From Octopus vulgaris (Eukaryota): a stretch of 64,000 bases of DNA. The notes under the pieces were generated by a model, which saw only the letters and a list, made by a program, of their open reading frames with translations, was not told the origin of the DNA and searched no databases. Positions 11,028 through 36,024 of the stretch are shown piece after piece. Position 1 is the stretch's first letter. Each line of letters starts with the position of its first letter. The translations under genes and the position numbers were made by a program. The stretch lies in assembly GCA_951406725.2 (NCBI GenBank), contig OX597817.1, forward strand, positions 112,096,001 to 112,160,000, given 5' to 3'.

Positions 11028-11112
11028 TATTATATTACATATATATTATCTATTATATATTTTATATAATATATATATTATATACAAATTATATATATAT
11101 TATATATATAAA

Positions 11113-12115
11113 TATCTTCTTTATCTTCTTTATCCCCGTCTGTCTTGATAGACAATGGGTTGCGCCAAGGGTGGGGCCTACTTTGATGATGTGCAGCGTC
11201 TGCTGTGACTGAACAGTCCAATTCTAGAGTGGCAGTCCTTGGTACAGTTGCTGCACACGAACATCGATGGGTACGTTTGGGGTGTTGCTGCAGTTGTCCT
11301 CCTCCTGTCCCGCCTGTCCAACCACAGCTGTGCTCTCCTCTCCTCAGCCATGGAAACGCCTTTCCTCACTGTCCGACGCCAGGCAGAGTGGTCAGCAGCT
11401 GTTTCCTCCCACGCGTCCACACAGATGTTGGCAGTTCTCAGGTCGCGCTTGCACACGTCCCTGTATCGTAGCTGTGGACGTCCCTTGGGTCGGGATCCCG
11501 TGGTGAGTTCGCTGTACAGGATGTCTTTAGGCATGCGACCGTCCTGCATGCAGCAGACGTGTCCGAACCAGCGCAGTCGTCTCCGCACGTGGAGGGCATA
11601 CATGCTTGGCATATTAGTCTGTTCCAGGATGGCTCCGTTTGGTACTCGGTCCTTCCAGGAGATGCCAAGGATCCGTCGAAGACATCGCATGTGGAAGCCG
11701 CTGAGGCGGCATTCCTGCCGGGTGTATGTTGTCCAGCTCTCGCTGCCGTAGAGTAGGGTGCTCAGCACGCAGGCTCGGTACACTGCGATCTTGGTGGTTA
11801 ATGTGAGCATGTTGTTTTCCCACACTCTCCTGGAGAGCTTAGCCATGGCAGCAGCAGCCTTCCCAATCCGTCTGTTCAGCTCCGGCTCGAGGGACAGGCT
11901 GCTGGAGACCGTCGATCCCAGGTAAGTGAACTCGTTCACCACCTGCAAGCTGTGGTCGCCGACACTGATGCTGGGGACCCCTCCGAGATCCTCTTTGCTG
12001 ACGATGCCGCCCTAACATCACACAACCAACCGGGTCTCCAGAGGCTGGTCAGCTCCCTGGCGGATGCCTGCCAAGAGTTCGGCCTTACCATCAGCCTGAA
12101 AAAGACAGAGATCAT
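11113..12115 (-). mobile_element. 5'-truncated RTE-clade LINE with inverted 5' segment (about 11985-12115 on +)
   Basis: Minus ORF 11178-11948 (FTYLGS...RRLRWFGHV...CSNCTKDCHSRIGLFSHSRRC), a 3' hairpin tgtct-atca-agaca and a (gataaagaa)n tail. The plus strand reads EILFADDAALTSHNQPGLQRLVSSLADACQEFGLTISLKKTEI. Confidence 0.92.
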
Positions 12116-12267
12116 ATAAATATATATATAGATTATATGTATATATATGTATATATATTATATACATATATACATGCATGTATATATATATATATATATA
12201 TATATGCATATTATATATATATTGTATATATATTATAGTATATATTATATATATACATCATATATAT

Positions 12268-12325
<58 letters not shown>

Positions 12326-12353
12326 CATATCATATATACAGAGTACATATATT

Positions 12354-15093
12354 ATGTTGTTGGCATCCTTTTTGTCTCGGGAGACAATGGAGTTGCGCAT
12401 AAAGTAGTCTAGTCCGGCTTTTACATTTCATGTCCTGATACATTTCCTGCTGTGGCTGTGTAGTCCTATCCTGGACAAACACTCCCTCTGGCAGGTACCG
12501 CAAATGTAGCGAAGACTGTTCCTGGCTGGTTGTAATGCCATAGTTTCTTGTTGACGTCTTTTCTTGTCTTTCCATTTCTCCTCTCTCTCTCTCTCTGTCA
12601 CTCCTTTGTATTCCCTCTTTTACGGTACGTCGCCAGTCTCCACGGTTGCCGGCAACTGCCTCCCAACCGCTAATATTGTGTTCCAGGCCTTCATGTCCCT
12701 TTTGCAAACATCCTTGTAACGTAAGAACGGTCTACCCCTAGACCTAGTACCCCTAGCAAGCTCTCCGTAGAGTATGTCCTTGGGGATTCTGCCATCTTTC
12801 ATACGGCTAACATGCCCAAGCCATCTCATACGTCTTTGTGTGAGGAGTGCAAACATGCTTGGTATTCCTGCTTGCTTGAGGACATCTTTGTTGGGGATAT
12901 GATTCTGCCATTTGATGCGGAGGATTTTCCGGAGGCAGCGCAGGTGAAAGATGTTTGGGCGACGCTCTTGGCGTGTGTATAGCATCCAAGTCTCACTTCC
13001 ATACAGTAGAGTGCTAAGTACACATGCCTGGTAGATCTTCATTTTCGTGGTCTTGGTCAGCTTATTGTTGTCCCAAGCCCGTTTGGAGAGTTGGGCCATC
13101 GCAGCAGCTGCCTTGCCAATGCGTATATTGAGCTCAGTGTCAAGGGGTAGGTTGTAGGTGATGGTAGAGCCAAGATAGGTAAACTTCTCCACCTCTTGTA
13201 ATCTGTGGTCTCCAATATGTATGTTTGGGATGTCCAATGTAGCCTGACCCATGATGTTGGTCTTCTTAAGGCTGATAGCTAAGCCAAAGTCATTACATGC
13301 TTGCTCAAAACAGTTAATGAGCCTTTGGAGGGCTTCTTCTGTGTGGCAGAGCGGCATCATCAGCAAATAACATCTCGTTGATCAGGACGTTTCTGATTTT
13401 GGTCTTGGCACGCAGGCGCGAAAGATTGAATAGTTTCCTGTCACTTCTACTGTGCAGAAACACTCCATCATCTGATGTCTGAAAGGCATGTGAGAGTAAG
13501 AGCGAGAAGAAGATGCCAAACAATGTAGGAGCGAAGACACAACCTTGCTTTACTCCGTTTTTTATTTGGAAGGCGGCTGATGTTGAACCGTTGTGCTGTA
13601 TGGTGCTTTGCATGTCATCATGGAAAGACTTGATGATCCTCAGCAGCTTTGGTGGACATCCGATTTTTTGGAGCAGGATGAAGAGGCCTGTTCTGCTTAC
13701 CAAGTCAAAGGCCTTTGTTAAATCAATGAAGGCCATATATAATGGCATTTTCTGCTCTCTGGACTTCTCCTGAAGTTGGCGTATGGAGAATATCATATCG
13801 ATAGTTGATCTGCTTCTTCTAAAGCCACACTGTGATTCCGGATAGATTTGAGAAGCAAGTAGTTGTAGCCTGGCCAGGATAACGCGGGCAAAGGTCTTTC
13901 CAACAGTGCTTAGAAGAGATATTCCATGGTAATTGTTACAATCACCACGGTCACCTTTGTTTTTGTAAAGCGTAATGACGTTAGCATCCCGCATATCCTG
14001 AGGGACTGTACCCTCTTCCCAGCACTGACACAGAAGCTCATGAAGGTGCCGAAGCAGGATGGTGTTTTTGCCAGCTTTGATGATCTCTGAGGGGATGCCG
14101 TCTTTTCCCGGAGCCTTGTTTCTTGGTGAGCTCTGCTATAGATGGTGGACTGTCAAGTTCGCACATGACTGGCAAGATCTTGACACTCTTGACTGCAGCC
14201 TCAGCCACTGTAGTCTCCCGTGAGTAGAGATCCTGGTAGTGCTCCACCCATCTATCCATTTGCTTGCTTTGATCCCTGATGAGATCTCCAGTAGTTGATT
14301 TCAGAGGGGCTGACTTGGTTGCAGATGGACCGAGGGCCTTCTTCAAGCTGGCATACATCCCACGGGTGTCGCCCCTGTCAGCAGCTGACTGGATACTCTG
14401 ACAGATTTCCTGCCAATACCTATTTGCACAGCATCTGGCTGTCAGTTGGGTTTTATTTCGTGCCTTTCTGAGTTCTTCGAGTGACTTTGTAGAAGAGTCA
14501 CTCTTGTATTGCATCAGAGCTGCATGCTTTGCTTCGACAACTGGCTCCAGCTCTGAGAGCCCAGCATCTGGGTTTTGCCTTTCTCTCATGCCGAAAGTAT
14601 CTATTTTAATGCTCGCGTGGGATCTGACCATGATTCGTGGCCCATTTGTGTTGGACACATTGGTATTGGCAACATGAATGACAATGGTCAGAGACTACTC
14701 GAATTCTGCACATACCATAACCTGTGCATCACAAACACATTCTTTACCAACAAGCCATCCCACAAGGCATCTTGGAGACATCCAAGATCTCACCACTGGC
14801 ATCAGCTGGATCTCATCATTACACGGAGATCCTTTCTGAATTCTACTCTATTGACCTGCAGTTACCACAGCGCGGATTGTGACACAGACCACTCACTAAT
14901 TAGAAGTAGGGTGAGGATTCTGCCTAAAAAAGTTCATCGCTCCAAGAAAGTGGGCCGACCATGCATTAACACTGCCAGAACCTCGGACCCTACACTGCAA
15001 AAATGTTTTGCTGCTTCTATCAAGGTTGGCCTCAGTAGCTGCCCAACCTCCTCTGCTGAAAGTAGGTGGAACTATATCAGGGAAGCTTTGTAT
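12354..15093 (-). mobile_element. RTE-clade LINE (frameshifted ORF) with inverted 5' endonuclease segment (about 14603-15093 on +)
   Basis: Minus ORFs carry YHGISLLS, FIDLTKAFD, GVKQGC, LFADD and FTYLGS, plus a 3' hairpin ttgtctc-cc-gagacaa. The plus strand reads FNARVG...NDNGQRLL...HQLDLI...DTDH (APE domain). Confidence 0.93.
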
Positions 15094-15167
15094 ATGACAT
15101 ATATATTATATATATATACATATTATATATATTATATATATACATATTATACATTTGTAGATTATAT

Positions 15168-15802
15168 CATCATCATCATCGTTTAACATCCGCTTTCCAT
15201 GTTGTCATGGGTTGGACAGTTCGACTGAGGACTGGTGATCCAGATTGCTGCTCCAATCTGATCTGGCAGAGTTTCCACAGCTGGATGCCCTTCCTAACGT
15301 TAACCGCTCTGAGAGAGTAGTTGGTGGTTTTACATGCCACCGGTACGATGGCCAGTCAGGCGGTACTGGCAACGGCCACACACAAATGGTATTTTTATTT
15401 GTCACCTGCATAGGAGCCAGTCCAGCGGCACTGGCAACACCCTTGCTCGAATGTTGTTTTTCATGTACCACAAGCACAGGTGCCAGTAAGGCGATGCTGG
15501 TAACGATGATGCTCGAATGGTGCTTTTTACATGCCACCAGCACGAGGGCCAGTCAGTGACCCTGGCAACGATCATGCTCGGATTGTGCTCTTAGCGCTCC
15601 ACTAGCACGGGTGCCAGACATGCGGTGCTGTCATCGAATTTGATTTCAAATTCACTTGCCTCAACAAGTCTTCGCAAGCAGAGTTTAGTGTCCAATGAAG
15701 GAAAGGTATGCCTAAGTGGGCTGGTTACATCACTGGTATTGGCCACGGGTTATGGTCTCACTTGGCTTGCCAGGTCTTCTCAAGCACAGCATATTTCCAA
15801 CA
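15168..15802 (-). mobile_element. 3' end of an (ATG)n-tailed RTE-type LINE family with tandem GC-rich 3'UTR repeats
   Basis: (cat)n-cgtttaacatccgctttccatg... is homologous to 34905-35420; repeated ggcactggcaacg...gccagtc units. Confidence 0.75.
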
Positions 15803-34904: not shown

Positions 34905-36024
34905 ATCATCATCATCATCATCATCATCGTTGTCGTCTAACGTCCGTTTTCCATGCTAGCATGGGTTGGACGGTTCGACTGGGGTCTGGGAAGCCAGGAG
35001 GCTGCACCAGGCTCCAGTCTGATCTGGCAGTGTTTCTACAGCTGGGTGCCCTTCCTAACGCCAACCACTCCGTGAGTGTAGTGAGTGCTTTTTACGTGGC
35101 ACAGGTGCTAGGCAAAGCTGGCAATGGCCATGATCGGTTGGTGCTTTTTATGTGCCACCGGCACGGAAGCCAGTTGAGGCGGCACTGGCAATGGCCACGT
35201 TCGGATGGTACTTTTTACATGCCACCGGCACTGGTATCACAACTATAATTTCCATTGATTTTTTTATTGATTTCGATTTCACTTGCCTCAATAGGTCTTC
35301 ACAAGCAGAGTTTTGTGTCCAAAGATGGAAAGGTATGCATAAGTGGAGTGGCTACATCCCAAGTAAAGGCCACGGGTTATGGTCTCACTTGTCCTGCCGG
35401 GTCTTCTCACGCACAGCATATTTCCAAAGGCCTCAGTCACTAGTCATTGCCTTGGTGAGACCTAATGTTTGAAGATCGTACTTCACCACCTCGTCCCAGG
35501 TTTTCCTGGGTCTACCTTTTCCACAGGTTCCCTCAACCGCTAGGGTGTGGCACTTTTTCACACACCTATCTTCATCCATTCTCGTCACATGACCATACCA
35601 GCGCAGTCATCTCTCTTGCACACTACAACTGATGCTTCTTAGGTCCAACCTTTCTCTCAAGGTATTTACACTCTGTCGAGTATGAACACTGACATTACAC
35701 ATCCACTTGTGCTGGTGGCATGTGAAAAACATTCGAGCAAGGTCTTTGCCAGTGCCACTGGACTGGCTCCTGTGCAGGTGGCACATAAAAAAGCACCATT
35801 TGAGTATGGCCGCTGCCAGTACCGCCTGACTGGCCCTCGTGCCGGTGGCACGTAAAAGCACCCACTACACACTCAAAGTGGTTGGCGTTAGGAAGGGTAT
35901 CAAGCTGTAGAAACTCTGCCAGATCAGATTGGAGTCTGGTGCAGCTATCTGGTTCACAAGACCTCAGTCAAATTGTCCAACCCATGCTAGCATGGAAAGC
36001 AGACGTTTAAACGATGATGATGAT
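34905..36024. mobile_element. Two copies of the (ATG)n-tailed RTE-type LINE 3' end joined in opposite orientation, tails outward
   Basis: The left copy (minus, to about 35706) includes WMCNVSV...LRWYGHVTRMDEDRCVKK...GRPRKTWDEVV. The right copy (plus, about 35707-36024) is 3'UTR ending (gat)n. Confidence 0.82.

What the first reader, a model, noticed from the sequence alone, without database searches (positions are those of the whole stretch)
12354..15093. RTE LINE copy 2, a different subfamily, independently shows the same inversion
Seen: the plus-strand APE segment (FNARVG...AESRWNYIREALY, about 14603-15093) ends at TAT against TA-rich flank. The minus-strand body starts at IDTFGMRERQNPD at about 14604, the natural continuation of REALY apart from a few codons. 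Both long RTE copies here are inverted, and both terminate on AT in (TA)n. Inference: self-complementary (TA)n targets give the second strand an easy internal primer, so twin priming may be common for microsatellite-targeting RTEs in this genome. That could be an undescribed integration mode.
Basis: partly seen in the sequence, partly recalled or inferred. Interest (0 to 1): 0.75.

Follow-up and report, generated by a model that had tools for sequence, protein, structure and literature searches.

The report
Front-flipped RTE LINE, subfamily-dependent rate
A dead jumping-gene copy has its front 500 bases flipped, likely by the 'twin priming' mishap known from human LINE-1; only about 1 in 20 sampled relatives in this genome are flipped, but about a third of one older subfamily are, so the element's lineage seems to matter more than the TA repeat it landed in.

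Summary
The inversion is real in the assembly. Against a family consensus, 14603-15100 (+) is endonuclease sequence and 14605-12356 (-) continues it with 1 base lost. There is 3-base inner microhomology and an ~11-bp target duplication whose last 4 bases match the priming site: textbook twin-priming geometry. Neighbouring copy 1 is built alike. Public contigs neither confirmed nor refuted the junction.

'Common in TA targets' failed. In 3'-anchored samples 3 of 98 copies of copy 1's family (80% TA-flanked) and 6 of 108 of copy 2's family are inverted. TA versus non-TA was 7/113 versus 2/93 (p=0.19); pooled 13/159 versus 4/140 (p=0.08). A modest TA boost stays possible. Inverted ends do favour AT/TA (10 of 17), as ordinary microhomology predicts.

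The stronger signal is lineage: an older subfamily has 3/8 anchored (8/19 overall) inverted versus 2/85 (3/130) in the rest, an L1-like rate. The window copy belongs to the low-rate group.

Verdict: a known mechanism in a clade where my searches found no report. This scan already noted twin-primed RTE copies in other genomes.

The parts
14603..15100 (+). Inverted 5' segment of copy 2: C-terminal half of the APE endonuclease and linker (consensus 1003-1500); its high end is the inferred internal priming site P
   Evidence: BLAST to consensus 97.2%; translation; weak Pfam Exo_endo_phos_2 E 0.0065, below cut-off; intact relative L341 has Exo_endo_phos above cut-off
12356..14605 (-). Non-inverted body of copy 2: consensus 1502 to the 3' end, RT domain, 3' UTR, (CAA)n tail; dead (12-, 20-, 5- and 1-base deletions)
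   Evidence: BLAST 96.3% with alignment trace; Pfam RVT_1 E 5.5e-23; tail seen
14603..14605 (.). Inner inversion junction, 3-base microhomology shared by both segments, no flank DNA
15097..15109 (-). 5' copy of the candidate target-site duplication (13 bases, one AT unit longer than the 3' copy); its last 4 bases overlap the inverted segment
   Evidence: sequence read directly; its limits inside a TA tract are inferred
12345..12355 (-). 3' copy of the candidate target-site duplication (11 bases, begins with A right after the tail)
12114..12338 (.). Degenerate (TA)n tract shared by the 3' end of copy 2 and the 5' end of copy 1
   Evidence: TRF
15099..15151 (.). Degenerate (TA)n tract at the 5' side of copy 2
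   Evidence: TRF
11985..12115 (+). Inverted 5' segment of copy 1 (other family, 131 bases of RT, 100% to its consensus)
11116..11986 (-). Non-inverted body and tail of copy 1; 10-base target duplication at 11106-11115 and 12114-12123

Best explanation
This is a dead, 5'-truncated RTE-type LINE copy whose front 498 bases are inverted, likely by twin priming during insertion. Shown: the two-segment geometry, the 1-base gap, the inner and outer microhomologies and the candidate target duplication. Inferred steps: the endonuclease nicked an imperfect TA tract. The first 3' end primed reverse transcription from the (CAA)n tail. The other strand was cut about 11 bases away before copying finished, and its end (...ATGT) paired with ACAU at position 1497-1500 of the same RNA. 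It primed a second cDNA running to position 1003. The first cDNA stopped at 1502, where it met the second primer, and the two cDNAs were joined over 3 shared bases. Across the genome this is a minority outcome (about 2-4% in copy 1's family and in copy 2's own subfamily). It is much commoner in an older subfamily of copy 2's family (30-40% of a small sample). TA flanks set where priming occurs (AT/TA ends) and may raise the rate modestly. Two inverted neighbours in one window are most likely chance.
For: Geometry. Eighteen further classic inversions were found in the two families. Seven of these 18 (9 of 20 with the window copies) have the two breakpoints within 20 bases, against 132 of 287 for human L1 (PMC12016303). 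None of the 20 inner junctions holds a TA run over 4 bases. Non-TA inverted copies have clean duplications overlapping the inverted end: L375 15 bases, L130 9 bases. Duplications at non-microsatellite sites have a median of 10 bases (35 found among 88 copies examined; the measure includes junction overlap). PMC4245944 holds that an overhang longer than about 5 bases is needed. Rates. The subfamily effect holds when diagnostic sites are learned from colinear copies only: 3/8 vs 2/85 anchored, p=0.004; 8/19 vs 3/130 overall. L402 is primed within 6 bases of the window copy's site but has a different far end, so it is an independent event.
Against: The duplication here lies in a slippage-prone tract and its two copies differ by one AT unit. 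Several inverted copies have large gaps between breakpoints (399-3147 bases in L041, L073, L126, L375, L475, L491), which other repair routes could also give. The subfamily counts are small, and the subfamily test was post hoc (one of three site blocks). A TA effect does reach nominal significance in post hoc cuts: copy 2's family 10/81 vs 4/120, p=0.02; stratified test p=0.013; later sample 4/7 vs 1/12, p=0.04. So 'modest' may understate it. No biochemical test.
Confidence: 0.85

Rival explanations
1. One reading: (TA)n targets are the main driver, making twin priming common and amounting to a distinct integration mode. A workable version is that a palindromic TA tract offers the same nick site on both strands, melts easily and gives an AT end that pairs at many AU sites.
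For: 13 of 17 other inverted copies are TA-flanked; pooled odds ratio 3.0 (p=0.077); Mantel-Haenszel odds ratio 4.9, p=0.013, with post hoc strata. Within the older subfamily 7/16 vs 2/13 (p=0.13). TA-flanked inverted ends start with AT/TA in 7/13 vs 30/125 truncated ends (p=0.04). RTE-clade endonucleases favour TA sites (PMC13295347).
Against: Planned test not significant (7/113 vs 2/93, p=0.19; 7/125 vs 2/81 with the either-flank rule, p=0.49). The most TA-bound family has a low rate (3/98). No effect in the window copy's subfamily (2/56 vs 2/74). With fold-backs included the planned sample shows 10/113 vs 7/93. Tract length has no effect (median 90 vs 103.5, p=1.0). Inversions occur at non-TA sites with the same anatomy. 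In old copies with eroded ends 'non-TA' may be misassigned, which inflates the effect; restricted to copies with a 3' end it is 11/147 vs 4/110, p=0.28.
Confidence: 0.2
2. A normal truncated copy was flipped after insertion, with one break in the cruciform-prone TA tract and one inside the element.
For: Inversions are commoner in more diverged copies (span 600 bases or more: 9/27 under 94% identity vs 2/94). Long TA tracts are fragile (recalled).
Against: A break in the tract would carry TA bases to the inner junction; 0 of 20 have a run over 4 bases. All four old inverted anchored copies belong to one subfamily, so age alone does not explain them. Target duplications stay outermost.
Confidence: 0.04
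3. Two separate events: a truncated insertion completed by repair with a second cDNA or a second family copy pasted head to head.
For: Copies with breakpoints thousands of bases apart (L126, L375) could be of this kind.
Against: For this locus the two pieces abut within 1 base on the consensus, have similar divergence (97.2% and 96.3%), have no second tail and share one target duplication.
Confidence: 0.07
4. Assembly artefact from a chimeric or fold-back read.
For: No listed contig piece crossed 14603-14605 in four public runs, nor in the two of them also laid.
Against: A fold-back artefact duplicates sequence; here the pieces are adjacent and non-overlapping. Twenty junctions on several chromosomes share the anatomy. 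The runs may be other individuals or species, 111 pieces were not shown, and the tool states that a hole proves nothing.
Confidence: 0.03

Closest known systems
5'-inverted (twin-primed) human and chimpanzee L1 insertions (model of Ostertag and Kazazian 2001, paper not held; as described in passages of PMC2912911, PMC4245944 and PMC12016303)
   Same: Inverted 5' segment plus colinear 3' body inside one target duplication; 1-4 base microhomology at the outer junction (L1: 2-5 bases in about 70%); short inner microhomology; breakpoints within 20 bases in 9/20 (L1: 132/287).
   Different: RTE-type single-ORF element with a (CAA)n tail in an invertebrate-type genome. Overall rate 4-6% against 10% of all and 18-31% of recent L1; only the older subfamily reaches L1 levels. 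TA-rich targets rather than TTTT/A.
Single 5'-inverted zebrafish Nimb-2_DR insert in chicken DT40 cells (PMC4245944, passages)
   Same: A non-L1 LINE with a target duplication of about 12 bases giving an occasional inversion.
   Different: One engineered event. Here 20 natural insertions in two families give rates.
RTE-clade LINEs such as Bov-B and octopus RTE-2_OV (PMC6007223, PMC13295347, PMC9115989; passages)
   Same: Single APE-RT ORF of about 1,100 aa, about 3.9 kb, microsatellite-like tail, duplication starting with A at TA sites.
   Different: These papers do not describe 5' inversions (0 uses of 'inversion' in two; 1 in PMC6007223, not shown in the passages). Identity with RTE-2_OV was not tested.

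Membership tests
Twin-primed 5'-inverted LINE insertion | 5' segment inverted, 3' segment colinear with tail, far end of the inverted piece at the inner junction | tested here: met
Twin-primed 5'-inverted LINE insertion | Start of the inverted piece close to the end of the colinear piece on the RNA | tested here: met
   1 base lost in copy 2, 11 in copy 1
Twin-primed 5'-inverted LINE insertion | Whole structure inside one target-site duplication of about 10-20 bases | tested here: inconclusive
   11/13-base candidate differing by one AT unit inside a TA tract; clean duplications in non-TA relatives L375 and L130
Twin-primed 5'-inverted LINE insertion | Microhomology between target end and internal RNA site, and at the inner junction | tested here: met
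   at least 2 bases, 4 if the duplication is as inferred; 3 bases inside
Twin-primed 5'-inverted LINE insertion | Both cDNAs made from one RNA by priming on both cut strands | not testable with these tools
   needs a retrotransposition assay
RTE clade LINE | Single ORF with APE then RT, no separate ORF1, about 3-4 kb | tested here: met
   intact relatives L341 (1095 aa) and L371 (1092 aa) carry Exo_endo_phos and RVT_1 only; longest upstream ATG frame 52-89 aa in 6 full-length copies; consensus 3878 bases
RTE clade LINE | Short tandem-repeat 3' tail and target duplication near 10-12 bases, often starting with A | tested here: met
   CAA/CCAA/TACAA tails; median 10 bases in 35 non-microsatellite cases; benchmark from PMC4245944 and PMC6007223
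RTE clade LINE | RT phylogeny groups with named RTE elements | tested here: inconclusive
   120 listed homologues at 56-68% identity have the same architecture but none is named as RTE; no tree with named references was built; the label rests on architecture and recall
   13/159 TA-flanked inverted; 4/140 non-TA inverted; TA-specialist family 3/98

The most novel reading that the evidence does not exclude
Twin-priming rate is a heritable property of a LINE lineage. In one genome an older RTE subfamily inverted 30-40% of its insertions, like human L1, while its close sister subfamilies inverted 2-3%, and TA targets multiply the rate further. The pair would be a natural experiment for mapping what controls the timing of second-strand cleavage, in an element with no ORF1.
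Probability: 0.45. Interest if true: 0.62.

Novelty: new member of a known kind. Interest (0 to 1): 0.4.

Why it matters
5' inversion is described as almost confined to L1 in human cells (PMC4245944), and why some LINEs invert and others do not is open. Twenty natural cases in two single-ORF RTE-type families indicate that neither ORF1 nor a mammalian host is required, and they give a first rate for this clade within my searches. A tenfold difference between sister subfamilies, if it holds, offers closely related proteins to compare. The single locus is ordinary dead repeat DNA.

Tried and rejected
1. Opposite-strand hits looked like a family-wide shared inversion. The coordinates show those copies are colinear; 1 of 39 others was inverted.
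2. Read validation gave no verdict. Raw-read runs X23 and X24 laid 0 reads. Contigs of X1, X2, X4 and X15 stopped at 14603-14605, as colinear copies would, with 236 and 111 pieces not shown.
3. TA-tract length as a driver: no effect.
4. Age alone as a driver: old inverted copies share subfamily sites.
5. Mining flanks for other LINE families: 44 loci outside copy 1's family had distant protein hits; the only strand switches were window copy 1 itself.
6. The last genome search gave places but no DNA, so the older subfamily could not be sampled further.
7. The homologue search gave no clade name.
8. Paper searches for inversions in RTE or in TA-targeting LINEs found no report. One search returned unrelated papers and none. 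Ichiyanagi and Okada 2008, which surveyed RTE junctions, was not read and may bear on novelty. No supplements were opened.
9. Earlier-findings look-ups by words and by sequence returned nothing.

Full report
Setting. The window lies at G000:C4:112096001-112160000 in a 2.8-Gb animal genome, probably an octopus (my inference and that of earlier scan notes; not tested). Two LINE copies stand in tandem on the minus strand and share a degenerate TA tract at 12114-12338.

The locus. I built a consensus of copy 2's family (F2) from 23 long colinear copies. Window 14603-15100 (+) matches consensus 1003-1500 at 97.2%, and 14605-12359 (-) matches 1502 to the end at 96.3%. One base is missing between the pieces and 3 bases are shared at the inner junction. 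After the (CAA)n tail comes an 11-base word (12345-12355) that recurs at the 5' side with one more AT unit (15097-15109). Its last four bases are also the first four of the inverted piece. Copy 1 belongs to another family (F1, 67% identical). It has a 131-base inverted piece, 11 bases lost, 2 shared, and a 10-base duplication ending in the shared AT. Intact relatives encode one APE-RT protein of about 1,095 aa with no ORF1-sized frame upstream. That fits the RTE clade, but no named RTE was matched.

Mechanism. The anatomy is that of twin priming as described for L1 in PMC2912911 (12 passages), PMC4245944 (12 passages) and PMC12016303 (12 passages). The original paper was not held. The order of events is inferred from the anatomy.

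Survey design. I sampled copies by an exact 3'-end motif, which is blind to 5' structure but favours young copies. F2 has 1401 matches. The first 100 listed were fetched as 99 loci, plus 20 new loci from the list. Ten copies that are one fragment amplified inside another repeat and one duplicate were collapsed, leaving 108. F1 has 120 matches. All 100 listed were fetched; the window copy and L161 (junction at the locus edge) were dropped, leaving 98. Further F2 loci came from internal 80-100 base queries. Duplicates, composite copies and copies with an unseen 5' end were dropped before counting; in the last two sets that removed 7 colinear copies and 1 inverted one (L475), leaving 19. L130 came from the length-biased search and was added to pooled counts without its 38 colinear companions. 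'Classic' means the inverted piece starts upstream of the body. 'TA' means a perfect alternating run of 10 or more bases beside a junction.

Rates. Classic inversions: F1 3 of 98, F2 6 of 108. Short or fold-back inversions add 4 in each. Pooled, 17 of 299. Human L1 benchmarks are about 10% of all copies and 18-31% of recent ones. 'Common' is therefore not borne out, least of all in F1, which is 78/98 TA-flanked.

Flank test. Planned sample: 7/113 TA against 2/93 non-TA (3' flank rule, p=0.19); 7/125 against 2/81 (either flank, p=0.49). Pooled: 13/159 against 4/140 (p=0.077); with a 3' end present, 11/147 against 4/110 (p=0.28). Cuts made after seeing the data reach nominal significance: F2 10/81 against 4/120 (p=0.021), stratified p=0.013, the later sample 4/7 against 1/12 (p=0.038). 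Tract length does not differ (11 inverted, 122 colinear, p=1.0). A two- to fivefold boost is possible but not shown.

Where priming happens. Ten of 17 inverted pieces begin with AT or TA, against 7-10% of positions (p=1e-6). Truncated colinear copies do so in 30/125 (TA flank) and 13/102 (other). Three of the four non-TA inverted copies do so too. Priming sites cluster: 4 pairs lie within 15 bases among 16 F2 sites (p=0.014 on a crude uniform null), including L402, 6 bases from this copy's site.

Subfamily effect. The older inverted copies share 23 variants. Copies carrying them are inverted in 4/12 anchored and 9/29 overall, against 2/85 and 4/130 for the rest. Because those sites were learned from inverted copies, I relearned sites from 143 colinear copies alone. 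One of three blocks gave the same group: 3/8 against 2/85 anchored (p=0.004), 8/19 against 3/130 overall. A wider overlapping block gave 6/43 against 2/84, and the third 1/38 against 10/120. The window copy has 3 of 23 sites and belongs to the low-rate group, where TA makes no difference (2/56 against 2/74). Whether the element or the host of that epoch set the rate cannot be told from these data.

Rivals. A later flip with a break in the TA tract should leave TA at the inner junction; none of 20 has a run over 4 bases. Two independent pieces would not abut within one base. An assembly error would not repeat this anatomy 20 times, but reads did not settle this locus.

Literature. Ten searches found no report of 5' inversions in RTE elements or of a TA-linked mode. 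I saw passages only: PMC6007223, PMC13295347, PMC9115989, PMC13282606 and PMC5389967 (one reference-list hit). PMC13295347 reports a TA preference of RTE-clade endonucleases, which would account for TA-tract targeting. Most subscription papers are not held, and Ichiyanagi and Okada 2008 was not read. Earlier notes of this scan report single twin-primed RTE copies in other genomes (unchecked).

Verdict. Real in the assembly; most likely ordinary twin priming in a clade where it seems little recorded. The TA-specific mode is not supported. The lineage-dependent rate is the lead worth following. Interest 0.4.

Noticed in passing
L034, L056, L057, L065, L075, L080, L090, L105, L114, L122, L128; most of L444-L470: One F2 fragment (from consensus ~1059 to the tail) with the same 3' flank is amplified many times as cargo of another repeat; it belongs to the older subfamily.
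   Followed up: partly
L035, L094, L097, L110, L113: Short non-autonomous derivative joining the 5' end (to consensus 244) to the last ~80 bases of F2, a bipartite SINE-like element.
   Followed up: no
L049, L102, L185, L189, L240, L373: Fold-back 5' junctions: 17-117 bases from inside the body repeated in inverted form, likely snap-back of the nascent cDNA; a class distinct from twin priming.
   Followed up: partly
L126, L375: Two inversions primed within 2 bases of each other near the ORF start, both joined to a body of under 260 bases; the RNA's ends may lie close together.
   Followed up: no
L346, L347, L348, L354, L358 and others: Many full-length F2 copies share further upstream sequence with an A-run, perhaps a longer 5' UTR or a captured upstream piece.
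   Followed up: no
L132-L250: F1 is young (97-100% to consensus), has a variable A/G-rich tail and is about 80% TA-flanked, a near microsatellite specialist with intact copies such as L371.
   Followed up: partly
window 15161-15800: Repeat-like stretch after a (CAT)n run, with a 66-base tandem unit at 15408-15589.
   Followed up: no
window 35406-35642: Weak match to the C-terminal part of the F2 protein (29% identity, E 9e-5), probably an old LINE fragment.
   Followed up: no
L483: Complex F2 copy with three pieces in alternating orientation.
   Followed up: no
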